64,000 nt of DNA, from contig JACPLT010000001.1 in NCBI GenBank assembly GCA_016186365.1, forward strand, positions 13,231 to 77,230, given 5' to 3'. The notes below the pieces were generated by a model. The model was not told the DNA's origin, made no database searches, and worked only from the letters and a program-made list of their open reading frames with translations. Origin of the DNA: Candidatus Pacearchaeota archaeon (lineage in GTDB: Archaea > Nanobdellota > Nanobdellia > Pacearchaeales > GW2011-AR1). Shown piece by piece: positions 885 through 14,662 of this stretch. A program made the position numbers and the translations under genes. Every line of letters begins with the position of its first letter. Position 1 is the stretch's first letter.

Positions 885-959
885 TGACCCCGAAGGGATT
901 TGAACCCTCGACAACCGGATTAAGAGTCCGGTGCTCTAACCAGGCTGAGCTACGGAGCC
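885..959 (-). tRNA. tRNA-Lys (anticodon CTT)
   Basis: Minus-strand read GGCTCCG-TA-GCTC-AGCCTGGTTA-GAGC-A-CCGGA-CTCTTAA-TCCGG-TTGTC-GAGGG-TTCAAAT-CCCTT-CGGGGTC-A. 7-bp acceptor stem with two G-U pairs, D arm, 5-bp anticodon stem, 7-nt loop with CTT at 34-36, T-loop TTCAAAT. No encoded CCA. Confidence 0.8.
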
Positions 960-1820: not shown

Positions 1821-2570
1821 TTAAATTTTGACTATTTTTTTCTGTATATCAGTTGTGATAATTAGCTTGTTTTCTCTTGAAATGTAAAAATTAATTTCAC
1901 TTCTCACTCCAAAATTGCCTTTTAAATAAATGCCTGGTTCAATAGTATACCCTAGATTTTTTATTAAAACCCCTAAATTTTTATGATGTAGGGATTTATA
2001 TCTTCCATGACAGGAAATCGTGCCTATTGCATGACCTGTTTTATGACAGATATTTTTCTCATAACCTTCAGAAATAATTATTGTTCTTGTTGACAAGTCT
2101 GCATTTTTAAGAGAAACAAGCTTTTTTCTCTTTAGGTTTGATTTAATTAAGTTTATGCAAGAATTTCTTGCCTTGATTATTGTATTAAATGCTTTGGACA
2201 TTTTTTCAGGTATTTTATCTCCATAATAAGCCATCCAAGTTATATCTGAAAATGGCGCATCTTTCTGTTTTAACTTACTCCAAATATCTATTAGAACTAA
2301 AGAATTAGGAGTTAGGAGCTTTGATTTCTTCTTTGGAAAGTAATGGGGAATTGCAGAATGTTCATTAAATGCGACAATTGGAGGATTTTTGTCAGGTTTT
2401 AAGTTTAATATATCAAATCTTTTTAAAATAAATTGCTGAACTTCAAATTCTGAAACATGGTTTTTATTTTTTCTTATAAAATTAAAAGTTTCTTCTTTAA
2501 TTTGATTTAGTTTCTTAGAGGCATTAACATGAAGATTGATTTGTTTCTTTTTTCTCAGAACTATAAACTT
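1821..2570 (-). CDS. M24-family metallopeptidase (Xaa-Pro/Met aminopeptidase-like catalytic domain); no canonical start codon in the upstream open frame
   Basis: Track ORF 1821..2234 carries GHAIG, TIEPGIY and GVRSE (pita-bread His/Glu/Glu ligands). The same frame stays open upstream to 2570 and encodes IPHY, LVLIDIW and FSDITW (His and both Asp ligands). No ATG/GTG/TTG lies between the stop at 2571-2573 and the Met at 2234. Confidence 0.5.
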   Translation of the reverse strand, partial: KFIVLRKKKQINLHVNASKKLNQIKEETFNFIRKNKNHVSEFEVQQFILKRFDILNLKPDKNPPIVAFNEHSAIPHYFPKKKSKLLTPNSLVLIDIWSKLKQKDAPFSDITWMAYYGDKIPEKMSKAFNTIIKARNSCINLIKSNLKRKKLVSLKNADLSTRTIIISEGYEKNICHKTGHAIGTISCHGRYKSLHHKNLGVLIKNLGYTIEPGIYLKGNFGVRSEINFYISRENKLIITTDIQKKIVKI

Positions 2571-2590
2571 CTAAGACTAATGATATGGTT

Positions 2591-2644
2591 ATTTTAAACA
2601 AGAGAGATAGATATATAATTTATTATCTATCTCTTTGTTTTAAA
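2591..2644 (-). terminator. long hairpin (about 20-bp arms) downstream of the hemerythrin-KaiC gene; second 11-bp-stem hairpin at 2655..2700
   Basis: attttaaacaagagagatagata / tatctatctctttgttttaaa inverted repeat with a 10-nt loop, then atttgtctcaa...ttgagacaaat. Placed between two minus-strand genes. Confidence 0.4.
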
Positions 2645-2800
2645 CCTACTTTATTTGTCTCAATTCTATAATTACTAGGGTATTAAGTTTTTGAGACAAA
2701 TAAAAATATAATTAATTAGATTAAGAATATAAGTAATTTTATTAATTATTTTAGGGCTGTTAGTAAATTTATCGTCTAATAATAACCACTAACTCAATGC

Positions 2801-4261
2801 TTATATTTCACTAAAAACTTCCTGTTCAGGATAGACAGTTATCCCATTATCAGAAATAGTAACAGCCACAATTTTCTTTTGATGATTCTCTCCCCTCATT
2901 TTCAAAACTTCTATTCCTTTTTCTCTTACATCTCCTCTCTTGAAATTATAAAATACAATTACTCCATCTGCCAAGAATTCTTCAACTCCTGTCTGTGAGA
3001 ATATTTTAGGAATTTGTTCAGTCTCTGTAATAAGTAAATTAGTTGAGCCAAGCTTTTCAAAAAATCTAAACAACTGCTCAATATAAATTCTATAGCTATC
3101 TTCTTTTCCAGTAAAAGCCGATGCAATAGCAGTAAGTGAATCAATAGCAACAAAATCAGGTTTAAAATCAGTAGGCATTATTACAGGATCAATATCAATT
3201 AATAGTTCCCCTTTTTGCTTAGCAAGAAGAGCATCAACATTTCTTGTAATATCAAAGGGATTCATTCTCTGAAGTTTTAACTTTCCTTTTTTTATTAATT
3301 CTTTTGGATTCCAACCAAATTCTTCCATATGCTCAATTAATCTGTCCTCACTTTCCTCAAAGCTCATATAATAGCATTTCTTGCCTTCATTTGCCTTATT
3401 AATAAGTGTTTGAAGGCAAAATATTGTTTTTCCACTTCCAGCACCACCTGCAACAAGCACACTACATCCCTTAGGAATTCCAAGACTAAATAAATCATCA
3501 AATCCAGGAACACCTGTTTTTACTCTTTCCTTTACAAACCTTGTATCTTTTTCATTCATATTCTGAATAACATGTAAAGCAGGAGCTCTTTGCTCTTTTA
3601 TCTCAGCTTCGTGAGGTTCAATCTTCCCACCCTTTAATTCAGCCTCAATTTCAGATTTTATAGAAGCCATGTCGAATTTAGTATTTTTTGCTTTACCTTT
3701 ATTTTCTTTTTTTTGCTTAGAAGCAGCAAACTCTGCGTACCTATGGTCCTCGATTCCAATATGATTTACAAGCCACTCTCCAAGAAATTTTCTTGCCTTA
3801 TCAACTAATTCTTTTATTTTTCCAGAAACAGGAGCTTTAGAAGAAAAAGCTAATTTTAATTCTTTTTCATAATTAATATAAAATTTAACAAAACTTCTAT
3901 GCATTTCCTTGTGCTCTTCAAGTCCAGGAAAATTAATTTTCTTCATATAGTTTTCTTCATAAGAAAAATTTTCTTTGACATAACTCTCAAAAAAACCCAT
4001 TATCTCTCTAACCAAAGCCAAACTAGCAAAAGATTCCTCTGCTTTAATTAATTTATTAATATATTCAAAAAGTCTTTTATGTTGATTATCAATTTTTTCC
4101 TCATGAACCGAAAGTTTAGAAGTCCAAACAAATTCTTTCCCGGGATTAATACTTATGTTTTTTTTAATATCTTGCTTTTTTAATTTAATAGAAATCTTAT
4201 CCTTTTCTTCCTTTTTTTTAGATTTCACCTCTGTCTTTTTCTTCACCATCTTTTTTACCAT
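2801..4261 (-). CDS. hemerythrin-domain / KaiC(RecA)-like ATPase fusion protein
   Basis: N-terminal Lys-rich tail, then a bacteriohemerythrin-like signature (WTSKLSVHEEKIDNQHKRLFEYIN; ENFSYEENYM...HKEMHRSF; EWLVNHIGIEDHRY). C-terminal RecA/KaiC core with Walker A VAGGAGSGKT and Walker B FVAIDSLT. Confidence 0.65.
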   Translation of the reverse strand: MVKKMVKKKTEVKSKKKEEKDKISIKLKKQDIKKNISINPGKEFVWTSKLSVHEEKIDNQHKRLFEYINKLIKAEESFASLALVREIMGFFESYVKENFSYEENYMKKINFPGLEEHKEMHRSFVKFYINYEKELKLAFSSKAPVSGKIKELVDKARKFLGEWLVNHIGIEDHRYAEFAASKQKKENKGKAKNTKFDMASIKSEIEAELKGGKIEPHEAEIKEQRAPALHVIQNMNEKDTRFVKERVKTGVPGFDDLFSLGIPKGCSVLVAGGAGSGKTIFCLQTLINKANEGKKCYYMSFEESEDRLIEHMEEFGWNPKELIKKGKLKLQRMNPFDITRNVDALLAKQKGELLIDIDPVIMPTDFKPDFVAIDSLTAIASAFTGKEDSYRIYIEQLFRFFEKLGSTNLLITETEQIPKIFSQTGVEEFLADGVIVFYNFKRGDVREKGIEVLKMRGENHQKKIVAVTISDNGITVYPEQEVFSEI

Positions 4262-4300
4262 CTTAATTAATCAAAGAAAACCTTATATTTAAACCTTATT

Positions 4301-4843
4301 TTACTTTTCTTCAATCACCCTATCACAAAACTGAGAAAGCCTGGAAATCATTTCATCATCAGTTTCTTTTTCTAAAGAAATTATTGTTCCCGAGCAATTC
4401 CATTCTTTCATCTTATTTATAAGAAAATGAGAAAACTTTGTTACACTTCCAGTATTATTATAAAAAATTAAAGTTGAGATAGAATCTAAGAATAATAGTC
4501 TATTGTCAGCAGGCAAGCTATTTACTGCACTTGTAGCTGCTATTGAAATATCTGTTAATCCTCGAGGACTTCCTATAAAAATCGCATTTTCCGCTTTTTG
4601 TGTTTTAAAAGACGCAGGGGTTATAGCGTCTATAAAAAAAACATTTTTTGTGTTTATCCTTTCTTGCTGTAAAAGTTTCATCAAAGCCGCATAAGGTTTA
4701 TTTACACTAATATAAACACAATTGTATTTTTTATTATTAATATAATATTTCAGAATTGCGAGATTTGTAATGACATACTTCTTAGCAGAAGTAATAACCA
4801 AAGAAATTTCCCCCTCTTTTAATTCAGAAAATTTTATTACCAT
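4301..4843 (-). CDS. KaiC-like (RecA-fold) protein with degenerate P-loop
   Basis: Paralogous to 12254..12781 and 13222..13749. Retains hhhhDS (LLFLDSIST) but has no GxxxxGK[ST]. Its start ATG overlaps the upstream stop (TAATG at 4841-4845). Confidence 0.55.
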   Translation of the reverse strand: MVIKFSELKEGEISLVITSAKKYVITNLAILKYYINNKKYNCVYISVNKPYAALMKLLQQERINTKNVFFIDAITPASFKTQKAENAIFIGSPRGLTDISIAATSAVNSLPADNRLLFLDSISTLIFYNNTGSVTKFSHFLINKMKEWNCSGTIISLEKETDDEMISRLSQFCDRVIEEK

Positions 4844-5664
4844 TAATACTTACCAACTTTTCTGTTATTTTTAAACTTTGATTCCACTAAAGAGCTTAAT
4901 GATGCATGCGAACTTTGAAGAAGAATATTAAATGCATTTGCCAACTCCCCGATCTCATCTTTTGATTTTTTTAATTTGGTAGGAATCTTTACATCAATAT
5001 TTCCAGAGCCGATATCTTCTGCTATTTCTGTAAGTTTATTGATTGGATTTATCACTCTTAAAAAGAGAATAGAAAGAGCGATTATAACAATCAATAGTTC
5101 CAGCCCAATCACCAAAAATGTAGTGTTTGAGACAGAGCTCAAAATCGCATTGTCCTCTTCTTTTAATATTTCCGAATGCTTGCTGTCAAGGTTCAAAGAA
5201 ATAGTTGAGCTTTCAAAAACATCATCAAAAAGACTATCTGTAGGTATACCTGATTTTCCAGAAAAGTAATCACCCAAAGCGACTGATAAACTTTGAGCAT
5301 CTGATAAAGTTTTCTTGTGTGCACTAAGTTCTTCTGAAATCTCAGTTTGTGTTCTTTTTGACTCTCCATTCTCTATCTCAGAAACAATTTCGCCAAACCT
5401 CAGCACATTATCATTATAGAAAGTATAAAGCTCTTGGTTATGAATAAGGGGGGTATTATTCTCATTTAAATCTGCCTGGAGATGCGCAGAAAGTCCTCTG
5501 ATATTTGCTTCTATCAACACGGCATCGATATTACTTCTTAGAGCAATGTTAATATTCTTCATTGAAGAATTATTCTTCAAAACAAACACAGTTTGAACTG
5601 AAAAAAACACAATAAAAACAATTGATATAACAATAAAGATATTTCTCAATTTCATCTCAAGCAA
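4843..5664 (-). CDS. membrane sensor: 2 TM + periplasmic domain + HAMP, no kinase domain
   Basis: N-terminal TM, about 170-aa extracytoplasmic segment, second TM followed by a HAMP-like amphipathic region (INPINKLTEIAEDIGSGNIDVKIP...DEIGELANAFN). Confidence 0.55.
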   Translation of the reverse strand: MLEMKLRNIFIVISIVFIVFFSVQTVFVLKNNSSMKNINIALRSNIDAVLIEANIRGLSAHLQADLNENNTPLIHNQELYTFYNDNVLRFGEIVSEIENGESKRTQTEISEELSAHKKTLSDAQSLSVALGDYFSGKSGIPTDSLFDDVFESSTISLNLDSKHSEILKEEDNAILSSVSNTTFLVIGLELLIVIIALSILFLRVINPINKLTEIAEDIGSGNIDVKIPTKLKKSKDEIGELANAFNILLQSSHASLSSLVESKFKNNRKVGKY

Positions 5665-5826
5665 TTCCCCCTATTTTTTTCACTTTCTTTTTCATGTTTA
5701 ATATAATAAATCTACTTATTTAAATGCATCTAATCTTTGAGCTGTAAAGTTAAAGGGAGCTAAAAGTCGGTTTGTAGGATTAAGCCATTTAGAAAAATTT
5801 ATAATTAAAGTTCGATTTACTTTAAT

Positions 5827-6195
5827 ATGAAAAAGGGAACATTTCACAATAAATGGTATTTTCGATTGCTTCAAGTAATATTTTTGGGATTTTTCATATT
5901 CTTTATAATTGTAGGTATTCGGGGTATTTTTTACAGAGAGGGTGAGCCATTTGTTGGATTCATCTTCGCAGGCATTTTAGCTATCGTGTACTGGCTAATC
6001 ATGAGAAATAAAGGCTCAATGGGTGGTTTTGTTTTTGGTGTGATGGTGGGTCTTCTTTTATTATTTATAATATCTAAACTTAATCCGGGGGACGAAATAG
6101 CTGGAATAGTGATATTTACCTTATTATTGAGTGGATTATTTTTTGCATTTATAGGTTACTTGATTCAAAATAATTCTTGGAAGAAAAACAAGTAG
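5827..6195 (+). CDS. small membrane protein (4 TM, 122 aa)
   Basis: Hydrophobic helices; no motif. Confidence 0.4.
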   Translation: MKKGTFHNKWYFRLLQVIFLGFFIFFIIVGIRGIFYREGEPFVGFIFAGILAIVYWLIMRNKGSMGGFVFGVMVGLLLLFIISKLNPGDEIAGIVIFTLLLSGLFFAFIGYLIQNNSWKKNK

Positions 6196-6292
6196 CTCGT
6201 TAGAAAAGGTTACCTTTTTGGCCTATTTATTTATACCAAACACCCGCTTACTTTACAGCTCACTAATCTTGATTCAAAACATCATCTCAATA

Positions 6293-7858
6293 TTATTTAT
6301 TTTTTTTCTTTGTTCCCTTAACAAGTTTATCAACAACATCTTTAGCTTCATAGTTCTTAGAAATTGAAGTTAGATTTTCCTTAGATATCTCTCGTATGAA
6401 AGCAAAACCCCCGATTATATTTCCTTTTATATCTTTAATAGGAGACGCTCTGATAACTACTTTTATTTCTTTTCCATTTTTTTTAATAATTGTTATTTCA
6501 AACTCTGATGCCTTACCAGATAGGGAAGTTCTAATACCTGTTTCTGCAAGTTTCAAATCTTTTTTAGCAGTAATATCTGCAGGACTTTTCTTCATTAATT
6601 CTTCTTTATTGCTATATCCAAGAATTTTTACCATAGCTTGATTCACATCTTTTGTATTTCCATTTAAGTCTATTACCCATAATCCCTCGCCCATAGAAGC
6701 AAGAATCTCTTTATTAAATTGTTCAGTTTCCTCTTTCGCTTTTATTATTTCTCCTAATCCAATATCCTCTTTAGAAATTCCTGTCCTTAAAATAGCAAGT
6801 TTCATTGAAGCTAGAATTCTATTAAATGAATCTATCAATAATTGAACTTCATCTATTGTGCTTTTTCCAAGCTGAACATCTAAATTTCCTTTTGTTATTG
6901 AAACAACGTCTGCTGATAGCTTTTCAATCGAATTTGTAATTCCTTTTGAGAAAACCAATATTAAACCAACCATAATTAAAATGCTTATTATTATAGAATA
7001 CACCATAACCATTAAAATATTACGCTGAATCTTAAACACTTTATTTGATGGTTCAAGATAAACAATCACACCATAATCCAACTTCTTAAAACTCACAACA
7101 TCACTTTCAAATATAAATGTTTCAGATAGTATATTATTTTTAATTTTATTATTTATTAACTCAATAAGTTTATCATGTTTTTCAGCAGGATTAGATTTGT
7201 CTAAATTATTTCTCGTATCTATAGTGAGATTTCCTTCTCTGTCTAGAAAGAGAGTATGACTTTCTTTATCTGAATCAATAAGTCCATTAAAGAGGGAATT
7301 GAGCGAGATAGAAGATAGAACAAACCCCTCCATTCTGTTTTGAGAGAAGATTGGCACATTAACTGTTATAGCAGGTTTATTATCCACTAAGCTTATGAAA
7401 GAAGCAGAGACATATGGCTTTTGAGTTTTTAAAATTCCCTTGCAATAATCCCTATAAGTAAAATTAAGGTTTTTTAAATTAGGTATTGAATTAGTAACTC
7501 TTTTGTCAGCAACAATTACCTTGCAATTCTCATCCATTATAGACATAGTTTGGAATAAATTACTTGATCCGACTATTACATCAAACTCCTGACTTATATC
7601 ATTCAAAGTTTCATTATCCGGATTAATCGTGACTTTGATGTATTTTTCATCGTTTGCAAGATTTTGAAGCCTGCCCATAACTGTATCAAGATACACTTCA
7701 ACTATTTTAGATTTAGTTTCTATAATCTTTTGAGCTACAACATTTTGACTTTCTACAACAATCTTCTTTGTTATAATCCCCACAGATATAACCAGAAACA
7801 GTGAAACTAAGAGGAGTGAAAGTATGATTATTATCATCAATTTTATCCTTAATTTCAT
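6293..7858 (-). CDS. membrane sensor protein: Cache-like extracellular domain + HAMP + C-terminal PAS, no kinase output
   Basis: N-terminal TM, about 250-aa extracellular region, second TM (MVMVYSIIISILIMVGLILVF), HAMP-like linker, PAS-like C-terminus (GEGLWVIDLNGNTKDVNQAMVKILGY...). No H-box or HATPase motifs. Confidence 0.55.
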   Translation of the reverse strand: MKLRIKLMIIIILSLLLVSLFLVISVGIITKKIVVESQNVVAQKIIETKSKIVEVYLDTVMGRLQNLANDEKYIKVTINPDNETLNDISQEFDVIVGSSNLFQTMSIMDENCKVIVADKRVTNSIPNLKNLNFTYRDYCKGILKTQKPYVSASFISLVDNKPAITVNVPIFSQNRMEGFVLSSISLNSLFNGLIDSDKESHTLFLDREGNLTIDTRNNLDKSNPAEKHDKLIELINNKIKNNILSETFIFESDVVSFKKLDYGVIVYLEPSNKVFKIQRNILMVMVYSIIISILIMVGLILVFSKGITNSIEKLSADVVSITKGNLDVQLGKSTIDEVQLLIDSFNRILASMKLAILRTGISKEDIGLGEIIKAKEETEQFNKEILASMGEGLWVIDLNGNTKDVNQAMVKILGYSNKEELMKKSPADITAKKDLKLAETGIRTSLSGKASEFEITIIKKNGKEIKVVIRASPIKDIKGNIIGGFAFIREISKENLTSISKNYEAKDVVDKLVKGTKKKNK

Positions 7859-8502
7859 ACTTCATCTCCTCCAATAATATAAAGGGCAATTCCTACTAAA
7901 ACAAAAAGAATAGAAGCATTTAATGCTAGAGCCTTACTAAAACCTTCAAAAGAATAATAAAGAAAGGGCTGACTGATAGCATATCCAATAAGAGCAATCG
8001 CGGAGATTACTACAACAATTACTCCCAACATTCTAATCGCTTTAGATTTTAAAGGGAAAAACCATAGAAAACCCGCAATTCCTATTAAAATAAAGTTAAT
8101 AATCGCTCCAATTGAAGGCATTCCTGGAGAGACAGTTTTTACCGCTCCAGATGCCTCATTTATAAAAGTATTTTCAATTCCAAGACTAATTCCTAAAAAA
8201 GAAGATATAAGCAAAAGCCCCATGATTAAAATTATCAACGTTAAACCAATCAGAACAATAACATTATTCAAATCCATATTCCCAGAAATCTTTAACATAA
8301 ACAAAAGCATTATCCCGGAAAATAAGAAAGAAACTGCTGCCAAAAACCTCATCTCAACCATTCCAGGAAAAAAGCTTTTTAAGATTGGAATGTTAAAAAT
8401 CCATCCAAAAATAACAACTACAGCACTTATTATAACAATTCCTGCAATTATTCTTACAGCAAGCTGTTTATTGTTTGATTGTTTATTTATTTTTTCACCC
8501 AT
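7855..8502 (-). CDS. multi-pass membrane protein (215 aa)
   Basis: 6-7 hydrophobic helices. 4-nt overlap with the downstream sensor gene. Confidence 0.5.
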   Translation of the reverse strand: MGEKINKQSNNKQLAVRIIAGIVIISAVVVIFGWIFNIPILKSFFPGMVEMRFLAAVSFLFSGIMLLFMLKISGNMDLNNVIVLIGLTLIILIMGLLLISSFLGISLGIENTFINEASGAVKTVSPGMPSIGAIINFILIGIAGFLWFFPLKSKAIRMLGVIVVVISAIALIGYAISQPFLYYSFEGFSKALALNASILFVLVGIALYIIGGDEV

Positions 8503-8517
8503 TTTTCACCTGTTTTA

Positions 8518-8937
8518 TCATTTTCTTTCTCCCAAAACTCTTTTTATTTCATCGGTAAATTTTTTGTAATCTAAGGGCTTCTGTATAAATCCATCCACTA
8601 AAAATAATTTTTCAATTTCATTTTTAGGAACAATTGTGCAAAAAAGCATTTTAGGGCTTCCCTTTGCATCTTTTTTCATTAATTCTGCAGTCTCTTCACC
8701 ATTTAAGCCAGGCATCATGATATCTAAAATAACCAAATCATAATTTATAGTCTTTGCAAGAATAACTGCCTTTCTTGAATCTTGTTCTGCTGTTGCTTCA
8801 TAACCCTCTCTCTCAACTATATTTTTCATTGTAGTTAAAACATCTGCTTCATCATCAACAATAAGAATCTTTATTTTTGACTTTCTTTCTCCCATTTTCA
8901 TTTCTTTTACTGATAAACCTCTTTTTTTCTTCATCAT
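8518..8937 (-). CDS. stand-alone CheY-like response-regulator receiver
   Basis: KILIVDDE...DLVILDIMMPGLNG...GFIQKPLD. True start probably an internal Met (MKMGERKSKIKILIV). Confidence 0.8.
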   Translation of the reverse strand: MMKKKRGLSVKEMKMGERKSKIKILIVDDEADVLTTMKNIVEREGYEATAEQDSRKAVILAKTINYDLVILDIMMPGLNGEETAELMKKDAKGSPKMLFCTIVPKNEIEKLFLVDGFIQKPLDYKKFTDEIKRVLGERK

Positions 8938-8967
8938 TTTATTTTATTAACCCTCTTTCTTTTAAAT

Positions 8968-11037
8968 CTACTTCACTAAGAGATAAGACCTTGTTTTTTT
9001 CCCTGCTTTTGCTTGCCTGCCCTCTTTTTTCTCTCCCTCAAATATAAGCTTAATTCTCTTTTTAAACTCTTCGAAGCGTTCAGTTACTATTCTATCTTTT
9101 TTCAATGATTCAAGGTATTTAATTACTCTCTCTTCGGTTATTCCTTGTTTCTGCAGATTATAAAACTCACTGATTCCAAGAGGCCCAAGAATATCAATTA
9201 AAAGTTCCTTAACTTCTTTTTCTATATCTGCTCTTCCTGAAAACAAGATTTTTATTGGTCTCATTTCTCTCACAGGCTCAAGAGGAACAGCAAAGTGGAA
9301 CACCGTGCCAACTCCTTTTTTGCTTTCAAACCATATTTTTCCATTCTGGCTTTCTACAATCCCCTTGCATATTGCTAATCCAAGTCCTGTTCCTCCAAAT
9401 TTTCTTGCATACATCCCTCCTGCTTGGAAAAATGGCTCAAAAATTCTTCCCTGCTCTTCATCAGCAATTCCATCTCCATAATCTTTGACAGTAAAATAAA
9501 TAAAATCTTTCTCTTTTTTAGCATAAACCTCAATTTTGCCATTATCTTTTGAAAATTTAATTGCATTGTTCAATAAATTTCTCAAAACCTGCATAACTCT
9601 GTCAGAATCAACTTCAATAACAGGCAAGCTATCAATATAAGGTTCTATTTTAATCTTCTTTTCAGGCATAAATCCCTTCATTTCCTCAATTGTTCTTTTT
9701 ATTGGTTCATTTAAGCTAGTTTTGACAAACTCAAACTTTAATCTTGCTGCTTCAATTCTTGAAATTTCTAAAAAGTCTTGAATAATCTTGTCTAATCTTT
9801 CTGTATTATTAAGGACAATTTGCAGTGATTCTCTTTGCTCCTTAGTTAGCTTACCAAAATAGTCTCCCAATACCATCTGCAATTGAGCTTTCATAGGAGT
9901 CATAGGACTTCTTAATTCATGTGAAGTTATAGAAAGGAACTCTGTTTTTGCCTTGTCCACCTGTTTTCTCTGCTCATCTGTTTTTTCCATTTGTTCAATT
10001 GTATTATTAAATACATTTCCCAATTCCTCAAACTCATCACCTGTTTTGATATTTGTCCTCGCCTTGAGATTTCCTCTCTCAATCTCTTTTGTTACAATAT
10101 AGAGCTGGTTCAAGGGTCTTAACATGCTCCTTGATAAATAAAAAATAGCAATAGAAAAAACAATAAATACAGATACTAAAACACTAATAAGGGCATATAA
10201 CAGTTTACTAGCAAGAGCAAAGGCTTCTTTTGTAGGAATAGCATATGTTACTATCCAATTATTTCCTTCAAAGTCAAGATATCCTGGCTCTTTTGCAAAA
10301 GCAACAATACTCTCTGTCCCTTCAATAAATTCAACATAGCTCCCAATTTCTTTGCCTTTAGATTTTTCATTTAATTGATTCCACATATGAGAAGTTTCCA
10401 TAAATAAGTCTCCGGAACCATGAGAAGAATATAAAGTGGCCCCTTCTTTATTGAGTAAATCTACATCATTATCTAATACCCCTTTAAGTAAAACATTATT
10501 TATTTTTGTAATAGGAACTCTTGCAACAATAACTCTGAATACATTTCCGTCTTTATCCTTAACAGGTGCTGCAAAATAAATTATAGGAGCTTTTAATTCC
10601 TCTGCGACCCTTATATCTGAGCCAGAGACTATTTTTCCATCTAAAACACCCCTCCAATAACCAATTAACTCATGCTGTTCTCCTATCATCAAGCCAGAAG
10701 TATCAGCTATTCTTGTTCTATTTATATCAAAAAGAGAGATAGAGGCATAACTTTTGTAAAAGTTCCTATATTCAATAAGCCTTTTTGTTATATCTTCAGG
10801 ATTAGAATCATGGTTGGTTATTAAGGAACCAGTAGCCATTACTTGGATATCAGAATACTTTTCATGCATTAATATATCAATTCTAAGCATGATCTCTTGC
10901 GTTTCCATTTCTAATCTATTGGTTATCTCTCTTTCAAGAGAAGCTTTGCTGACTGTATAAATATAAAAAGAAAGAATAACACCAATAAATAAGACGAATA
11001 TTCCAAATAACAGCAATAACTTATGTGAAAATTTCAT
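8968..11037 (-). CDS. sensor histidine kinase (2 TM, extracellular sensor domain, HAMP, HisKA, HATPase_c, C-terminal extension)
   Basis: H-box ITSHELRSPMTPM, N-box LRNLLNNAIKFS, G-boxes DYGDGI and GGTGLGLAICKGIV. Two TM segments flank a roughly 270-aa sensor domain. Confidence 0.85.
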   Translation of the reverse strand: MKFSHKLLLLFGIFVLFIGVILSFYIYTVSKASLEREITNRLEMETQEIMLRIDILMHEKYSDIQVMATGSLITNHDSNPEDITKRLIEYRNFYKSYASISLFDINRTRIADTSGLMIGEQHELIGYWRGVLDGKIVSGSDIRVAEELKAPIIYFAAPVKDKDGNVFRVIVARVPITKINNVLLKGVLDNDVDLLNKEGATLYSSHGSGDLFMETSHMWNQLNEKSKGKEIGSYVEFIEGTESIVAFAKEPGYLDFEGNNWIVTYAIPTKEAFALASKLLYALISVLVSVFIVFSIAIFYLSRSMLRPLNQLYIVTKEIERGNLKARTNIKTGDEFEELGNVFNNTIEQMEKTDEQRKQVDKAKTEFLSITSHELRSPMTPMKAQLQMVLGDYFGKLTKEQRESLQIVLNNTERLDKIIQDFLEISRIEAARLKFEFVKTSLNEPIKRTIEEMKGFMPEKKIKIEPYIDSLPVIEVDSDRVMQVLRNLLNNAIKFSKDNGKIEVYAKKEKDFIYFTVKDYGDGIADEEQGRIFEPFFQAGGMYARKFGGTGLGLAICKGIVESQNGKIWFESKKGVGTVFHFAVPLEPVREMRPIKILFSGRADIEKEVKELLIDILGPLGISEFYNLQKQGITEERVIKYLESLKKDRIVTERFEEFKKRIKLIFEGEKKEGRQAKAGKKTRSYLLVK

Positions 11038-11168
11038 CTATTCTTCCTCGGTTTATCTTTCATCTTCCCTCTTTTATATTTATAAACTAAATCCCTTTAA
11101 ATAGCTTCACTTTGAGTGATGGTCCATCAGCAATTTAAATGTAGCTTGCTTTTGCGGATATCTTCTTA

Positions 11169-12194
11169 TTACTTTGTAATAGAGGTTATAAATTGAGAAT
11201 CAATTATATCATCCAAATTTGTTAGTTTGTTTATCTGCCCCCTATTAAAATAAAATTCTGATATAAACTTTCCACTAGAATACAACTCTCCTTCTGGCGA
11301 TTTGGACATTGCCCTTATATTTTCTGCCAAACTGGGCTGATAAATTCCACTTAATCCTGAAGCTAATTCTTCATTTGTGAAGTTCTCAGCTTTTGCCATT
11401 ATATTTAGTGCCTCTTCCCTATTTGTTTTTTGGAATTCTTTTGCTTCAACCAGCGATTTTACAATTGCTTTTACTTTTTCAGGATTTTCTTCAACAAACA
11501 TAGAATTAAAGAAAAGCCCATCCACGATAATTCCTGGAATGTCTCCTGCTTTTCCTAATTGCTTATATCCCTTTGCCAAAGCAGCTGATTTAGTAGGCTC
11601 CCATGTGTGCCCTGCATCTATCTTCCCGTTTTCTAAAGCACTTAAAACATCATCTGCAGAAACATCTACAAATCGAACATCGGTTTCCTTTAACCCTACC
11701 TTTTCTAAAGAAGCAAGCACAAATATATTGGAAAAGCTATTTATTCCATCAATCCCAACTTTTTTCCCCTTCAAGTCAGAGAGAGAATTAAACTCCTTTC
11801 TTCCTATTATAATATCTCCAGATTCTGAATAATCCGTAATATATACAAATTTAGTCTTTATGCCTTCTGAATAATCTTTAATTGCATCAGAATAAACCTC
11901 AAAAATCCCATCTAACCTTTCATCTTTAAATCTTTCCCTAGACACAAAATAATCTTGATCATATATAAGCTCAACTTTAACTCCATTTTTCTCAAAAAAT
12001 CCTTTCTCCTGTGCAACAAATGCAAAAGCATAACCTGGCCATTGACCAATTGATATTTTTACAGGAGTTTCATCAAGATTTATCTTTGTGCTAGAACTAT
12101 AGTAATAAATCCCCCCCGCTATTGCCAGAACTAAAATTACCCCAATAACTATCCAAATTGCTTTATTCATTTTTCCTCTTTTATAATTAAGCAT
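11169..12194 (-). CDS. periplasmic substrate-binding protein (NMT1/SsuA-like ABC-type SBP)
   Basis: N-terminal signal anchor, then ISIGQWPGYAFAFVAQEKGFFEKNGVKVELI, typical of NMT1/THI5/SsuA-type binding proteins. Heads the SBP-HK-RR operon. Confidence 0.6.
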   Translation of the reverse strand: MLNYKRGKMNKAIWIVIGVILVLAIAGGIYYYSSSTKINLDETPVKISIGQWPGYAFAFVAQEKGFFEKNGVKVELIYDQDYFVSRERFKDERLDGIFEVYSDAIKDYSEGIKTKFVYITDYSESGDIIIGRKEFNSLSDLKGKKVGIDGINSFSNIFVLASLEKVGLKETDVRFVDVSADDVLSALENGKIDAGHTWEPTKSAALAKGYKQLGKAGDIPGIIVDGLFFNSMFVEENPEKVKAIVKSLVEAKEFQKTNREEALNIMAKAENFTNEELASGLSGIYQPSLAENIRAMSKSPEGELYSSGKFISEFYFNRGQINKLTNLDDIIDSQFITSITK

Positions 12195-12253
12195 AGAAAA
12201 TAAACTTTATAAATCCTCTTGTGCAAAACGTGAACCAAACTAATTAAAAAAGA

Positions 12254-12781
12254 TTAATTATTAGATTTCTGCGCGGTATCAATAACTTTATCGGCATAAG
12301 TTTGCGCTTTCTTTATAATTTGCTGCTGGTCTTCAACATCCAAGACTAAGAAAATTGACCGAAGATTTTCTACAGATTTCATATCATTAATAAGACTTGA
12401 AAAAAACCTTTCAACGATAATATTAGAGTTATATGTTGAAAGATTAGTTATAGAATCAAAAACAATAAAATCAAACTCCTGATTTAATATCTTTTTTATT
12501 GCTAAACTCAGTTCAGTTAAAGAAGAAGGAGACGAAAGAAAATAACATCTATCAGAAGAATTAACTTTTTTCATAGAACCAGAAATAGCATCAAGATAAA
12601 AAAAGTTTTTTTCACTTATTTTTCTATTTTTAAAAAGCTCTTCTATTGCGGGCCAGGTTTTATTATAGCTTATATATAAAACTCTCTTTCCACTTAGGCT
12701 TTTTCCAATATCTGTAGTTACTTTTCCGTAATCTAATGAATGTATTAATACAAGATTTGTTTTGTCAAATTTAAATCCCAT
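12254..12781 (-). CDS. KaiC-like (RecA-fold) protein with degenerate P-loop
   Basis: Walker A position reads HSLDYGKVTT (no Ser/Thr after the Lys). Walker B-like FIVFDSITNL retained. Abuts the upstream receiver gene (stop/start adjacent at 12781/12782). Confidence 0.55.
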   Translation of the reverse strand: MGFKFDKTNLVLIHSLDYGKVTTDIGKSLSGKRVLYISYNKTWPAIEELFKNRKISEKNFFYLDAISGSMKKVNSSDRCYFLSSPSSLTELSLAIKKILNQEFDFIVFDSITNLSTYNSNIIVERFFSSLINDMKSVENLRSIFLVLDVEDQQQIIKKAQTYADKVIDTAQKSNN

Positions 12782-13150
12782 TTATTTTTTCTCCAAAATC
12801 TTATTAACTCTTTTTAATAAATCCGAATTATCAAAGGGCTTTTGAATATAATCAACTATATTTTTGCTAATTTTCAACCCTTCCTTCTCAGCATCACTCA
12901 TTCTCACAACACTTAAAAAAGAAATCTTGACATCTTTAGAAATTTTAGATATCATCTCCCTTACTGGAGTTCCAGGCATCATGATATCCAATAGAATCAA
13001 ATCCGGCTTTTCTTTCTTTAATTTCTTTAAAGCATCATCAGCATCAACACAAAGAATTACCTTATATTTATTTTTCTCAAGAAGAAGTTTCATAGTTCTC
13101 CTTATATCCTCTTCATCATCTACAACCATCACTATTTTTTGTTCCGACAT
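12782..13150 (-). CDS. stand-alone CheY-like receiver
   Basis: IVMVVDDEED...DLILLDIMMPGTP...DYIQKPFD. Confidence 0.85.
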   Translation of the reverse strand: MSEQKIVMVVDDEEDIRRTMKLLLEKNKYKVILCVDADDALKKLKKEKPDLILLDIMMPGTPVREMISKISKDVKISFLSVVRMSDAEKEGLKISKNIVDYIQKPFDNSDLLKRVNKILEKK

Positions 13151-13221
13151 ATTAACTTCCTTTTATTGTTTAACCAACTAATAATCGAGAGTTTATAACC
13201 TCTGAGTATTATCAGATTAGA

Positions 13222-13749
13222 TTATTCTCCCAAATCAATAACCTTATCCACAAACATTCCGCTTTCTTTTATCAAAGCTTCCTGTTCTTTTACTGAAAGA
13301 GCATAAAAAATTGCTTTGGTTTTGCTTTCTTTAATCTTATTAACAAGACTTGCCACAAATTTTGAAACAGGCGCCTTGCTCTGATAAACAAGCAAATTAG
13401 TCAAAGAATCAAATATAATATAATCAAAATTATGCCTGACAAACTTTGAAATAACCAAGGAAATTTCAGTTAATGCTCCGGGAGAAGAGCAATAATAAAC
13501 CCCTTCTGATTGGTCTGGAACATTCTTAATTGTCTTTGAAATAGCATCAACAAAAACAATGCTCTCTGTTTTAATCTTATTTTTCTTAAAAAGTTCAACT
13601 AAAGAATCCTTTGTTTTATTCAAAGTTACATAAGCTATATTACTTTTAGACAATTCTTTGACTATGTCTACTATTTCTTTATTATAGTCTGCACTAGACA
13701 TAATTAAAAGTATTGTCTGGTTATTAGAAAGCTCTTTTTTTATGTTCAT
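13222..13749 (-). CDS. KaiC-like (RecA-fold) protein with degenerate P-loop
   Basis: Paralog of 12254..12781. SSADYNKEIV replaces the P-loop; YIIFDSLTNL retained. Confidence 0.55.
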   Translation of the reverse strand: MNIKKELSNNQTILLIMSSADYNKEIVDIVKELSKSNIAYVTLNKTKDSLVELFKKNKIKTESIVFVDAISKTIKNVPDQSEGVYYCSSPGALTEISLVISKFVRHNFDYIIFDSLTNLLVYQSKAPVSKFVASLVNKIKESKTKAIFYALSVKEQEALIKESGMFVDKVIDLGE

Positions 13750-13751
13750 TT

Positions 13752-14105
13752 CTATGCTCCAACAAATTTTTTTACTTGTTTAACCAAATCATCTATATCA
13801 AATGGCTTTTGTATAAACCCGACAATATTCTTGCTCTTCATCAAGTCGCCTCTTTCAGCTTCCGAAGTTCTTACAACGGAAAGATAAGCTATCTTTGTTC
13901 CTATCATTTTTGGAATTATTTCTCTTACAGGAGTTCCAGGCATCATTATGTCCATTAAAACCAAATCAGGTTTTTGCTTTTGCCATTTTTTTAAAGCGTC
14001 ATCGGCGCTTACTGCTGTAATGACATTATACCCATTTCTTTCCAAAATTGCTTTAACAGTAGTTACATTGTCAGGCTCATCATCCACAATCATTATTGTT
14101 TTCAT
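13752..14105 (-). CDS. stand-alone CheY-like receiver
   Basis: IMIVDDEPD...DLVLMDIMMPGTP...GFIQKPFD. Confidence 0.85.
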   Translation of the reverse strand: MKTIMIVDDEPDNVTTVKAILERNGYNVITAVSADDALKKWQKQKPDLVLMDIMMPGTPVREIIPKMIGTKIAYLSVVRTSEAERGDLMKSKNIVGFIQKPFDIDDLVKQVKKFVGA

Positions 14106-14178
14106 TTTATTCTTCCTAAGCTTTTAAAATGAAAAGCCTGAAAATCTTCAATTTTCTTGATTTTTGCCATATTGATCT

Positions 14179-14526
14179 TTATTTTAAAACCTCCTTGATT
14201 TTTTTCACAAATTCTTTTGGTGAAAATGGCTTTTGTATAAATCCGTCTATATCAGCCATATCAACCTCCGATTTTGGAACAACAGTAACATAAACCATTT
14301 TAACTTTGTGATTCAATTTTTCTCTTAATAATCTCAATAAATCATATCCAGACAAAGTGGGCATCATAATATCAAGTAGAATTAAATCAGGTTTAACTGT
14401 TTTAAGCAAATCAATGGCATATGCCCCATTTTTTGCTGTTGTAACTCCATATTCCTCTTTTTCAAGAATCGTCCTCATAGTTTCCAAAACATCCGCTTCA
14501 TCATCCACAATTAGTATCTTTTTCAT
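14179..14526 (-). CDS. stand-alone CheY-like receiver
   Basis: ILIVDDEAD...DLILLDIMMPTLSG...GFIQKPFS. Confidence 0.85.
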   Translation of the reverse strand: MKKILIVDDEADVLETMRTILEKEEYGVTTAKNGAYAIDLLKTVKPDLILLDIMMPTLSGYDLLRLLREKLNHKVKMVYVTVVPKSEVDMADIDGFIQKPFSPKEFVKKIKEVLK

Positions 14527-14662
14527 TTTATCCTCTTTTTAACTAATTGGAGAGGCAGAATTGCTAGGGTCATTTCTTCATCCACAATAAATATCTTTTT
14601 TGCATTTTTATTTTTCTCTTTTTCCTTATCTAACCAGGTTTTGCTTACTTTTAAACCTTTTC

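What the first reader, a model, noticed from the sequence alone, without database searches (positions are those of the whole stretch)
2801..5664. Hemerythrin-KaiC fusion ATPase translationally coupled to a P-loop-less KaiC-like protein and a HAMP-only membrane sensor
The 486-aa protein joins a bacteriohemerythrin-type di-iron signature to a RecA/KaiC ATPase core that keeps Walker A (GGAGSGKT) and Walker B (FVAIDSLT). Signature motifs: W-x4-V-x4-ID-x-QHK-x-LF, H-x2-EE, H-x3-H, and W-x2-HI-x2-ED. Directly upstream a 2-TM HAMP sensor and a 180-aa KaiC-like protein without a P-loop are coupled by a TAATG stop/start overlap at 4841-4845. This reads as an O2/NO/redox-sensing input to a KaiC-type hub, with the pseudo-ATPase as a possible adaptor. 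KaiC-like ATPases are proposed archaeal signalling hubs, but I know of no description of a hemerythrin fusion combined with a degenerate paralog and a HAMP sensor.
Basis: partly seen in the sequence, partly recalled or inferred. Interest (0 to 1): 0.7.

Follow-up and report, generated by a model that had tools for sequence, protein, structure and literature searches.

The report
Hemerythrin-KaiC sensor ATPase signalling module
A tiny DPANN archaeon carries a conserved gene module in which an iron-containing oxygen/redox-sensor domain is fused to a KaiC-type ATPase and sits beside a membrane sensor and a dead-ATPase adaptor; it is a real and, as far as I could find, undescribed variant of the proposed archaeal KaiC signalling hubs, although this copy has lost one of its seven iron-binding residues.

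Summary
Window 2801-4261 (-) encodes a 486-aa protein with an N-terminal bacteriohemerythrin domain and a C-terminal KaiC ATPase, both above curated cut-offs. It is preceded by a P-loop-less KaiC-fold protein (DUF7504) and a 2-TM HAMP-only sensor, which are joined by a TAATG overlap.

Corrections:
- The second iron-ligand His is Asn (N98) in this copy only; 36/36 aligned homologs keep His. There is no 'H-x2-EE' motif.
- The ATPase is KaiC-CI-like: single domain, with EE where CII has its Ser/Thr phosphosites.
- The trio is the 3' end of an 11.7-kb signalling island (4 REC, 3 pseudo-ATPases, 1 histidine kinase, 2 output-less HAMP sensors, 1 binding protein).

Comparative evidence:
- The order sensor-HAMP -> DUF7504 -> KaiC recurs in other DPANN lineages.
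- Hemerythrin is fused to KaiC, encoded separately just upstream, or both.
- Sister proteins carry a winged-helix DNA-binding domain on the same linker and ATPase.
- DUF7504-like genes always abut an input gene (REC or HAMP).

Best reading (inferred): an O2/redox-responsive KaiC ring that receives membrane and two-component inputs through pseudo-ATPase adaptors.

Databases call the protein only 'bacteriohemerythrin', and I found no paper describing the architecture. Verdict: new variant of a known kind; moderate interest.

The parts
2801..4261 (-). Hem-KaiC fusion gene (486 aa); NCBI MBI2629487.1, named 'bacteriohemerythrin'
   Evidence: ORF; Pfam/NCBIfam; exact match in NCBI/Logan
3722..4132 (-). 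Bacteriohemerythrin domain (res 44-180); predicted four-helix bundle (helices 55-73, 81-108, 114-140, 145-186)
   Evidence: best PDB match DcrH-Hr, E 1.9e-16; AF2 pLDDT about 88-95 over the bundle
3968..3970 (-). Codon AAT = Asn98 at the position of the second di-iron His ligand (His in 36/36 other aligned fusions and in DcrH)
3527..3706 (-). Conserved two-helix linker (res 186-245; motif FDMxxIKxEIxAELKGGKIxxxEAEIKEQRAP), shared with wHTH-KaiC and short KaiC sister proteins
   Evidence: (LINK hits)
2822..3523 (-). KaiC CI-like RecA-fold ATPase domain (res 247-480): Walker A 3425-3448, Walker B 3131-3154, catalytic EE (E302/E303), K454-x-R456-G-x-x-H460
4301..4843 (-). P180a: DUF7504 pseudo-ATPase (KaiC/RecA fold, no Walker A, Walker-B-like LFLDSIST retained)
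4841..4845 (-). TAATG stop/start overlap coupling the HAMP sensor gene to P180a
4843..5664 (-). 2-TM HAMP-only membrane sensor (HAMP res 203-250, short conserved 'LVESK' tail, no output domain); likely start is the ATG at 5655
6293..7858 (-). dCache-HAMP-PAS membrane sensor without kinase or other output domain
7855..8502 (-). Multi-TM protein with no family hit; 4-nt overlap with the Cache-HAMP-PAS gene
8518..8937 (-). Stand-alone receiver (REC) protein
8968..11037 (-). Membrane histidine kinase (dCache-HAMP-HisKA-HATPase_c)
11169..12194 (-). NMT1-type substrate-binding protein with an N-terminal hydrophobic anchor
12254..12781 (-). P180c: second P-loop-less KaiC-fold paralog, 0-nt gap after a REC gene
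12782..13150 (-). Stand-alone REC, paired with P180c
13222..13749 (-). P180b: third paralog (weak DUF7090/DUF7504/DUF835 hits), 2-nt gap after a REC gene
13752..14105 (-). Stand-alone REC, paired with P180b
14179..14526 (-). Stand-alone REC; first gene of the island

Best explanation
This is a KaiC-centred signal-transduction module of a DPANN archaeon (Candidatus Pacearchaeota). SHOWN: the last gene encodes a cytoplasmic protein built from a bacteriohemerythrin four-helix bundle, a conserved two-helix linker and one KaiC-CI-type RecA ATPase domain with all catalytic motifs intact. Immediately upstream lie a conserved pseudo-ATPase (DUF7504, KaiC fold, no P-loop) and a membrane HAMP sensor with no output domain of its own, and those two genes overlap. 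The order sensor-HAMP -> DUF7504 -> KaiC recurs in other lineages. The trio terminates a conserved cassette: REC(s) - pseudo-ATPase - histidine kinase - Cache/HAMP sensor - (hemerythrin) - KaiC. INFERRED mechanism: the ATPase forms a ring like KaiC CI and the archaeal PH0186/PH0284 proteins. The di-iron hemerythrin reports O2 or redox state through the linker helices and changes ATPase turnover or ring conformation. The pseudo-ATPases act as adaptors, each made together with one input module (a HAMP sensor or a phospho-receiver), and dock that input onto the KaiC ring. Output probably goes through the sister wHTH-KaiC, which shares a nearly identical linker and ATPase and may co-assemble with the hemerythrin form, and/or through the receiver proteins. 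In this particular copy the His98->Asn change at the O2-binding iron site may have retuned or weakened sensing.
For: Domain identities. CI-like nature: 112-120 bits to KaiC CI vs 50-69 to CII; GVEEFLAD at the CII phosphosite position; invariant K278, T279, E302, E303, D374, K454, R456, H460 in 37 fusions. Closest solved hemerythrin is the sensory domain of the chemoreceptor DcrH, and hemerythrin is an established input domain for MCP and GGDEF proteins (PMC4919030). Rosetta-stone evidence: hemerythrin fused (window, L007-L009, L011, L085, L092), stand-alone directly upstream of KaiC (L013, L016, L023), or both (L005, L082, L083). Pseudo-ATPase: no P-loop in any of 35 family members but a conserved Walker-B-like strand; high-confidence KaiC fold. 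Conserved triad in L092, L093, L094, L008, with sensor HAMP+tail homologous at phmmer 5e-24 to 7e-15. Every P180-family gene is 0-7 nt from, or overlaps, a REC or HAMP gene; REC-iKaiC/DUF835 fusions are known (PMC5847659). Sister wHTH-KaiC shares linker and ATPase (up to 91% identical to the window's ATPase domain), is adjacent to Hem-KaiC in L010, and is interleaved with it in the ATPase tree. All KaiC/REC/HK/HAMP genes of the 64-kb window lie in 2801-14526.
Against: No biochemical datum exists for any member. Iron binding, O2 binding, hexamer formation, adaptor docking and hetero-oligomers are all inferred. The window copy lacks one of seven iron ligands. The P180 link is frequent but not obligatory: 8 of about 11 informative fusion loci have a P180-family gene within about 4 kb, and L010, L011 and L082 show none in the visible flanks. 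A 628-bp gap with an opposite-strand ORF separates the trio from the rest of the island, so co-regulation with the two-component genes is not assured. No output domain is encoded in the window itself. The loci were collected by similarity to this protein, so frequencies are not unbiased.
Confidence: 0.55

Rival explanations
1. In this copy the hemerythrin domain no longer senses O2. The His98->Asn change at the five-coordinate (O2-binding) iron leaves a domain that either senses something else (iron availability, peroxide, NO) or serves only as a structural or oligomerisation module on an otherwise normal KaiC ATPase.
For: Asn replaces an invariant ligand (36/36 homologs His; DcrH His). The same sequence is found in an independent Logan assembly, so it is not an obvious one-off assembly error. 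Hemerythrin-like domains with altered ligand sets are known to have other chemistries (own knowledge, not checked here). 4 of 37 fusions also vary the H117 ligand (Gln).
Against: The other six ligands and the whole domain are intact, and the domain is not evolving faster than in relatives (residual -0.007, sd 0.063). That argues for a recent single change under continued constraint. Asn can still ligate iron (own knowledge, not checked here). The NCBI MAG and the Logan run may derive from the same reads.
Confidence: 0.2
2. The genes are merely neighbours in a 'signalling island'. The HAMP sensor, DUF7504 and Hem-KaiC act in separate pathways and do not contact each other.
For: Exact gene content varies between loci. 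Some fusion loci lack a nearby P180 gene. There is a 39-nt gap between P180a and the fusion gene, and TATA-like AT-rich sequence is everywhere.
Against: The same order recurs with only 55% identical Hem-KaiC (L092) and with different KaiC N-termini (L093, L094). Stop/start overlaps or gaps of 7 nt or less are seen in many independent loci. Fusion/fission of hemerythrin and KaiC and known REC-iKaiC fusions also argue against it.
Confidence: 0.1
3. The hemerythrin domain is not a sensor but an O2 scavenger or carrier that protects an oxygen-sensitive anaerobe, or its ATPase, from oxidative damage.
For: Protective and O2-supply roles are proposed for single-domain hemerythrins in anaerobes and microaerophiles (PMC4919030). 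Stand-alone hemerythrin genes are also present in the cassettes.
Against: One hemerythrin per ATPase subunit is stoichiometrically poor for scavenging. The consistent embedding among HK, REC, HAMP, PAS and Cache genes and the replacement by a DNA-binding wHTH in sister proteins fit a regulatory module.
Confidence: 0.05
4. The protein is a KaiC-type timer or clock component, or a RadA/DnaB-like DNA-repair ATPase, not a signalling ATPase.
For: Best sequence and structure matches are cyanobacterial KaiC. There are weak sub-threshold hits to DnaB_C, RadA and RadB.
Against: It has a single domain. Scores are far below the curated KaiC equivalog cut-offs (137 vs 408; 110 vs 546). The S431/T432 equivalents are absent. 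No KaiA/KaiB-like genes appear among the annotated island genes. There is no DNA-binding or Zn-ribbon/Lon domain as in RadA, and all neighbours are signalling genes.
Confidence: 0.04

Closest known systems
Archaeal KaiC-like ATPase 'signal transduction hubs' with inactivated KaiC (iKaiC) partners (Makarova, Galperin & Koonin, mBio 2017, PMC5717392; content recalled from memory because the paper is not held; cited in PMC5847659 and PMC6393860)
   Same: Single-domain KaiC-family ATPase encoded with P-loop-less KaiC-fold proteins and with sensor and two-component genes. Variable N-terminal modules on the ATPase, including wHTH. REC linked to iKaiC/DUF835 (PMC5847659).
   Different: A hemerythrin input domain on KaiC is not mentioned in any paper I could search. 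The lineage is DPANN, which was barely sampled in those censuses (4 genomes in PMC5847659 Table 1). The specific conserved triad sensor-HAMP -> DUF7504 -> KaiC, and the tight REC->pseudo-ATPase gene pairs as split versions of the known fusions, are worked out here.
DcrH hemerythrin-like sensor domain of the Desulfovibrio vulgaris chemoreceptor (PDB 2AWC/2AVK), and other hemerythrin-input signalling proteins (Hr-MCP, Hr-GGDEF; PMC4919030)
   Same: Closest solved relative of the N-terminal domain (E 1.9e-16). Same four-helix bundle and ligand motifs. A hemerythrin used as a terminal module on a signalling protein.
   Different: The output here is a RecA/KaiC ATPase, not an MCP, GGDEF, HD-GYP or kinase domain. 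The domain is N-terminal. The window copy has Asn at the second His ligand.
Cyanobacterial KaiC, CI domain (e.g. PDB 4TL8, 5YZ8), and Pyrococcus KaiC-like PH0186/PH0284 (2ZTS, 2DR3)
   Same: About 30% identity with TM about 0.8 on the target. Walker A/B, catalytic EE, K-x-R-G-x-x-H, and the GVEEF(L/V)(A/S)D motif. These relatives form hexameric rings (10.1101/2021.03.19.436134).
   Different: One domain, not CI+CII. No S431/T432 phosphosites. No KaiA/KaiB found among the annotated island genes. Scores are far below the KaiC equivalog cut-offs.
ArlH (FlaH), the KaiC-like regulator of the archaellum motor ATPase
   Same: Single-domain KaiC-fold protein whose nucleotide and phosphorylation state controls oligomerisation and partner binding (10.1101/2021.03.19.436134); a precedent for regulation through ring assembly.
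   Different: ArlH is CII-like and autophosphorylates; this protein is CI-like. NCBIfam ArlH score is 49.7 vs a cut-off of 215. There are no archaellum genes nearby.
Pseudo-ATPase subunits of RecA-fold rings (Elp4/5/6; RAD51 paralogs XRCC2/RAD51D)
   Different: No sequence relationship beyond the fold (6-14% identity). Whether P180 enters a ring is not known.

Membership tests
Bacteriohemerythrin / O2-binding hemerythrin domain | Profile match above the curated cut-off | tested here: met
   NF033749 88.3 bits (cut-off 84), TIGR02481 93.5 (51.75), PF01814 44.9 (25.3)
Bacteriohemerythrin / O2-binding hemerythrin domain | Four-helix bundle fold | tested here: met
   AF2 model has four long helices at 55-73, 81-108, 114-140, 145-186, pLDDT about 88-95; aligns end-to-end with the DcrH-Hr structure sequence
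Bacteriohemerythrin / O2-binding hemerythrin domain | Complete set of seven di-iron ligands (H, HxxxE, HxxxH, HxxxxD) | tested here: not met
   H61, E102, H117, H121, H167 and D172 are present, but the second His is Asn98. It is His in 36/36 other aligned fusions and in DcrH. The family as a whole meets this feature; this copy does not.
Bacteriohemerythrin / O2-binding hemerythrin domain | Binds two iron ions and O2 reversibly | not testable with these tools
   Needs purified protein, metal analysis and spectroscopy
KaiC family ATPase (Pfam PF06745; RecA superfamily) | Profile match above cut-off, with Walker A, Walker B and the catalytic Glu pair | tested here: met
   PF06745 180.1 bits (cut-off 26.6) over profile positions 1-230 of 231. 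GGAGSGKT, FVAIDSLT and E302/E303 are invariant in 37 fusions. Foldseek to PH0186 and KaiC CI gives TMt about 0.8.
Bona fide circadian KaiC | Duplicated CI+CII architecture scoring at the equivalog level | tested here: not met
   Single domain; NF006799 137.4 vs cut-off 408; TIGR02655 110.5 vs 546
Bona fide circadian KaiC | Ser/Thr autophosphorylation sites (S431/T432 position) | tested here: not met
   The aligned position reads GVEEFLAD, as in CI (GVEEFVSD), not hISTItD
Bona fide circadian KaiC | KaiB/KaiA partners encoded nearby | tested here: not met
   No KaiA or KaiB family hit among the island genes scanned against Pfam; only this 64-kb window was searched
Inactivated KaiC-like proteins (iKaiC: DUF7504 / DUF7090 / DUF835) | KaiC/RecA fold with the Walker A P-loop lost, conserved as a family | tested here: met
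HAMP-domain transmembrane receptor | TM1 - extracytoplasmic region - TM2 - HAMP | tested here: met
   Hydrophobic segments 1-31 and 174-211; HAMP 203-250 at 39.5 bits (cut-off 25)
HAMP-domain transmembrane receptor | Downstream output domain (kinase, MCP signalling, GGDEF, etc.) | tested here: not met
   Only about 23 residues follow HAMP, with no further Pfam or NCBIfam domain. Relatives are HAMP-only or HAMP-PAS.
KaiC-centred archaeal signalling hub (Makarova et al. 2017 concept) | KaiC-like ATPase co-encoded with iKaiC and with sensor and two-component genes, conserved across genomes | tested here: met
   Window island; cassette conserved in L005, L013, L016, L023, L082, L083, L085; triad conserved in L092-L094
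KaiC-centred archaeal signalling hub (Makarova et al. 2017 concept) | Physical and functional coupling of the ATPase with its neighbours | not testable with these tools

The most novel reading that the evidence does not exclude
Hem-KaiC (input subunit) and its sister wHTH-KaiC (DNA-binding output subunit) co-assemble into mixed rings through their near-identical linker+ATPase chassis. The P-loop-less DUF7504/DUF7090 proteins are dedicated plugs that dock membrane HAMP sensors and phosphorylated receivers onto that ring. This would be a one-ring integrator that merges O2/redox, extracellular and two-component signals and converts them into transcription. It would be an archaeal signalling architecture with no bacterial counterpart, kept homogeneous by gene conversion or domain swapping between paralogs.
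Probability: 0.2. Interest if true: 0.8.

Novelty: new variant of a known kind. Interest (0 to 1): 0.55.

Why it matters
The 2017 proposal that KaiC-like ATPases are the main archaeal signalling hubs is still largely computational. The experimental work I located concerns ArlH and Haloferax CirA, not a KaiC-like ATPase with a defined sensory ligand. A KaiC-type ATPase with a spectroscopically tractable sensor domain (a di-iron centre) and a sister protein with an obvious DNA-binding output would give that hypothesis a directly testable in-vitro system. One could ask whether the ligand state changes ATPase rate, ring assembly or partner binding. It also shows that DPANN archaea invest about 12 kb of a small genome in a cassette that wires a classical two-component system to KaiC through pseudo-ATPase adaptors. 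Finally, current annotation ('bacteriohemerythrin') hides the ATPase half of these proteins.

Tried and rejected
1. The sigma-70 promoter and intrinsic-terminator scan of 2000-15000 gave counts equal to shuffled controls. It is uninformative for an AT-rich archaeon and was not used.
2. Makarova 2017 (DOI and PMC5717392) is not held, so I could not check whether a hemerythrin fusion is listed there. Its content is cited from memory only.
3. My first PDB search used a wrong reading frame and was redone with explicit sequence.
4. A Pfam scan of three large upstream proteins (L004, L010, L012) returned no family, although phmmer shows clear N-terminal hemerythrin domains of 75-126 bits. Their long K/E-rich coiled-coil tails probably triggered the bias filter. 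I trust the explicit alignments.
5. I first concluded that the exact HAMP-P180-HemKaiC order was private to this organism. That was rejected after seeding the search from P180 orthologs.
6. The defence-system idea (AbiEii and HEPN/NTP_transf_2 genes near one homolog) got no PADLOC hits for any of five proteins.
7. The idea that the hemerythrin domain is decaying after H98N was rejected, because its divergence is normal for its ATPase divergence.
8. The idea of one ancient split between Hem-KaiC and wHTH-KaiC was rejected by the ATPase-domain tree: at least 6 state changes in all 60 bootstraps. That tree is NJ only and the sample is similarity-biased.
9. The AFDB50 fold library was unavailable.
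10. The clock and DNA-repair readings were rejected on the membership tests.


Full report
WHAT IS THERE. The window is AT-rich (about 30% GC). It belongs to a Candidatus Pacearchaeota (DPANN) metagenome-assembled genome. The three proteins of the finding are 100% identical to NCBI entries on an 80,197-bp contig: the fusion is MBI2629487.1 'bacteriohemerythrin', the 180-aa protein is 'hypothetical protein HYW76_00135', and the sensor is 'HAMP domain-containing protein'. The same three genes are also present on an independent Logan contig. On the minus strand lie ORFs 4843-5664, 4301-4843 and 2801-4261.

THE FUSION PROTEIN. The 486-aa product has four parts. The first is a Lys-rich, low-confidence N-terminus (res 1-40). 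The second is a bacteriohemerythrin domain: PF01814 44.9 bits, TIGR02481 93.5 bits, and NF033749 88.3 bits against a cut-off of 84. The third is a two-helix linker. The fourth is a KaiC domain (PF06745, 180 bits, full profile coverage). AlphaFold2 with a 37-sequence alignment gives four long helices (55-186), two linker helices (198-234) and an alpha/beta RecA core. Mean pLDDT is 77 and pTM 0.50, that is, confident domains with an uncertain mutual orientation.

The closest solved hemerythrin is the sensory domain of the Desulfovibrio chemoreceptor DcrH (E 1.9e-16). The ATPase half matches Pyrococcus PH0186 and the CI domain of cyanobacterial KaiC (about 30% identity, TM about 0.8 on the target). 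Against full-length KaiC it aligns much better to CI (112-120 bits) than to CII (50-69 bits). Where CII carries the S431/T432 phosphosites, it reads GVEEFLAD, like CI's GVEEFVSD. Walker A, Walker B, the catalytic Glu pair and the K-x-R-G-x-x-H element are invariant in 37 aligned fusions. So it is a single-domain, CI-type ATPase that is probably active, not a CII-type autokinase and not a circadian KaiC. NCBIfam KaiC equivalog scores are a quarter of their cut-offs.

A CORRECTION THAT MATTERS. The sequence is K-E-N-F-S-Y-E-E. The residue aligned with the second iron-ligand His of DcrH ('vEHFgYEE') is Asn98, codon AAT at 3968-3970. All 59 homologs with a recognisable motif have H-F-x-Y-E-E, and in the 37-sequence alignment the column is His in 36 and Asn only here. 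The other six ligands are present.

In classical hemerythrins this His belongs to the five-coordinate iron that binds O2 (established knowledge, not tested here). The window's domain is not diverging faster than expected from its ATPase divergence (residual -0.007 vs sd 0.063). The change therefore looks like a recent single substitution (CAT->AAT) and not decay of the domain. The family is a bona fide hemerythrin-KaiC; this individual may be retuned or impaired.

The 273-aa protein has two hydrophobic segments flanking a region of about 140 residues, then a HAMP domain and a 23-residue tail, with no output domain. Its stop overlaps the start of the 180-aa gene (TAATG, 4845-4841). The 180-aa gene and the fusion gene are 39 nt apart.

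THE TRIO IS PART OF SOMETHING LARGER. Upstream on the same strand, in transcription order, are these genes: REC; REC; a P180 paralog; REC; a P180 paralog; an NMT1-type binding protein; a dCache-HAMP-HisKA-HATPase kinase; REC; a multi-TM protein; a dCache-HAMP-PAS sensor without output. A 628-bp gap holding a small opposite-strand ORF follows, and then the trio. Every KaiC, P180, REC, HK and HAMP gene of the 64-kb window lies in 2801-14526.

COMPARATIVE EVIDENCE.
(a) The fusion architecture is common. 74 of the 120 best database clusters (90% identity level) carry both domains. They come from Woesearchaeota, Pacearchaeota, Nanoarchaeota and unclassified archaeal MAGs. At the 50% identity level they collapse into essentially one representative plus fragments, so this is one tight clade.

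(b) The closest homologs end a cassette: REC-REC-DUF7090-HK-(x)-Cache/HAMP sensor-(stand-alone hemerythrin)-Hem-KaiC (L082, L083, L085). With local profiles built from the window's proteins, the same cassette appears in L005, L013, L016, L023, partly in L010, and as variants in L009 and L034.

(c) Hemerythrin and KaiC are fused in the window, L007-L009, L011, L085 and L092. They are split into adjacent genes in L013, L016 and L023. Both forms are present in L005, L082 and L083. This is classical fusion/fission evidence for a functional link. In five loci (L005, L016, L023, L082, L083) the stand-alone hemerythrin gene overlaps or abuts the preceding Cache/HAMP sensor gene, with gaps of -4 to +1; in L013 the ORFs overlap by 56 nt, where the true start is ambiguous.

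L092 has HAMP-PAS sensor -> DUF7504 -> small 3-TM protein -> Hem-KaiC, and that fusion is only 55% identical to the window's. L093 has HAMP sensor -> DUF7504 -> ... -> wHTH-KaiC. L094 has multi-TM HAMP sensor -> DUF7504 -> short KaiC. L008 has Hem-KaiC -> dCache_3-HAMP -> P180. The sensors share the HAMP+tail module with the window's protein (phmmer 5e-24 to 7e-15), while their membrane and extracellular parts differ.

(e) Every P180-family gene examined lies 0-7 nt after, or overlaps, a gene for an input module: REC in eight cases and a HAMP sensor in two. REC fused to iKaiC, DUF835 (iKaiC) and MEDS (iKaiC) is already documented (PMC5847659). One window paralog has a weak DUF835 hit.

(f) The association is frequent but not obligatory. 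8 of about 11 informative fusion loci have a P180-family gene within about 4 kb.

SISTER PROTEINS. Many hits with ATPase domains 70-88% identical to the window's lack hemerythrin. About 400-aa members carry a conserved N-terminal winged helix: HTH_IclR at 27.2 bits vs a cut-off of 22, and several HTH families near cut-off in all five tested. This is followed by the same linker motif (FDMxxIKxEIxAELKGGKIxxxEAEIKEQRAP) and ATPase. About 340-aa members have only a Lys-rich N-terminus. In L010 a wHTH-KaiC gene sits directly upstream of a Hem-KaiC gene. In L004 and L012 a hemerythrin-coiled-coil protein precedes a wHTH-KaiC.

In a neighbour-joining tree of the ATPase domain, the hemerythrin and wHTH forms are interleaved. 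The character needs 9 changes, with a range of 6-12 in 60 bootstraps. A clean split would need 1, and shuffled labels give about 19. The window's ATPase domain is 91% identical to a wHTH-KaiC but only about 69% identical to distant Hem-KaiCs. This means either repeated N-terminal swapping or gene conversion between paralogs. Both fit interchangeable, possibly co-assembling, ATPase rings. Caveats: NJ only, and the sample was chosen by similarity to the query.

HOW IT MOST LIKELY WORKS. Shown: the domain composition, intact catalytic motifs, the CI-like character, the pseudo-ATPase fold, the conserved gene order and couplings, and the fusion/fission of hemerythrin. Inferred:
- The ATPase forms a ring like KaiC CI and PH0186/PH0284.
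- The di-iron hemerythrin reports O2 or redox state via the linker helices to the ATPase, as hemerythrin domains are thought to do in DcrH and in Hr-GGDEF proteins (PMC4919030).
- The pseudo-ATPases are adaptors produced together with a given input module (HAMP sensor or REC), and they dock that input on the ring.
- The output is transcriptional, via wHTH-KaiC, and/or goes via the receivers.

I give this about 0.55. The main rival (about 0.2) is that in this copy the H98N change has altered or abolished O2 sensing. Mere co-location (0.1), a protective hemerythrin (0.05) and clock or repair roles (0.04) are less likely. A defence role found no support.

COMPARISON WITH WHAT IS KNOWN. The general frame is the 2017 proposal of Makarova, Galperin and Koonin: archaeal KaiC-like ATPases with iKaiC partners as signalling hubs. 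I recall this from memory because the paper is not held; it is cited in PMC5847659 and PMC6393860. Hemerythrin as an input domain is also known, for MCP, GGDEF and HAMP-MCP proteins. A 2016 survey of 56 architectures sampled only Crenarchaeota and Euryarchaeota among archaea and never mentions KaiC, ATPase or RecA (PMC4919030). Full-text searches for hemerythrin with KaiC-like, KaiC or DPANN found nothing relevant.

This is therefore a new variant of a known kind. It adds an undescribed input-domain architecture on the KaiC hub, a conserved sensor-HAMP -> DUF7504 -> KaiC triad, and a larger two-component/KaiC cassette in DPANN archaea. It is not categorically new, and it is already present, under-annotated, in public databases.

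VERDICT. Interest 0.55.

Noticed in passing
window 28328-32374 (+): A 1348-aa CDC48/AAA+ ATPase interrupted by an intein with a LAGLIDADG homing-endonuclease domain (Intein_splicing res 664-1148, LAGLIDADG_3 res 952-1029).
   Followed up: no
window 53021-54754 (-): A 577-aa HerA-like (DUF87) ATPase carrying a mini-intein without an endonuclease (Intein_splicing res 67-202).
   Followed up: no
window 16663-23883 (-), also 15651-16661 and 14794-15414 (-): A giant 2406-aa ORF with no Pfam hit lies immediately upstream of the signalling island, followed by two further ORFs (336 and 206 aa) without any family. Giant no-family proteins also flank the module in homologous loci: a 2566-aa gene in L093, 1766 aa in L094 and 1713 aa in L092.
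   Followed up: no
window 1821-2234 (-): The 137-aa ORF directly downstream of Hem-KaiC matches only the C-terminal half of Peptidase_M24 (profile positions 101-206 of 208). It may be a truncated methionine-aminopeptidase-like gene or a remnant. The same 137-aa gene is called on the Logan contig.
   Followed up: no
L004 1976-4090, L012 584-2899, L010 3143-4342: Large proteins (704, 771 and 399 aa) with an N-terminal hemerythrin domain closely related to the fusion's (75-126 bits), followed by long K/E-rich coiled-coil regions. They are encoded just upstream of wHTH-KaiC genes. Pfam hmmscan reported no family for them.
   Followed up: partly
ATPase domains of P0001-P0120 (one search hits): In the KaiC-domain tree the hemerythrin-bearing and wHTH-bearing proteins are interleaved (6-12 state changes in bootstraps). 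This suggests repeated N-terminal domain swapping or gene conversion between paralogs.
   Followed up: partly
alignment A1, column of H117: Four of 37 Hem-KaiC homologs have Gln in place of His at another iron-ligand position (H117), so ligand variation is not unique to the window copy.
   Followed up: no
window 12254-14105 (-); L009, L013, L023, L083, L085: Stand-alone REC genes are followed within 0-7 nt by a P-loop-less KaiC-fold gene in many loci. This looks like a split version of the published REC-iKaiC/DUF835 fusions.
   Followed up: partly
window 5827-6195 (+): A 122-aa hydrophobic ORF on the opposite strand sits in the 628-bp gap between the Cache-HAMP-PAS gene and the HAMP-P180-HemKaiC trio. 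It has only a weak sub-threshold MNHE hit. In L092 an unrelated-looking 112-aa 3-TM protein lies between DUF7504 and Hem-KaiC.
   Followed up: no
L084 7014-7992; L089 7375-8321; L094 2132-3243: NTP_transf_2/HEPN-type (minimal nucleotidyltransferase) gene pairs are inserted inside or next to the KaiC/DUF7504 clusters in several homologous loci.
   Followed up: no
P0068: One Hem-KaiC homolog on a 569-kb contig is labelled 'Methanococcoides sp. SA1' in NCBI, and several GTDB loci are labelled 'uncultured Methanosarcinales/Thermoplasmatales'. All other full-length fusions are from DPANN-type MAGs. This could be mislabelling or a wider distribution.
   Followed up: no
window 885-959 (-): tRNA-Lys (CTT), the only RNA gene detected in the window.
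   Followed up: no
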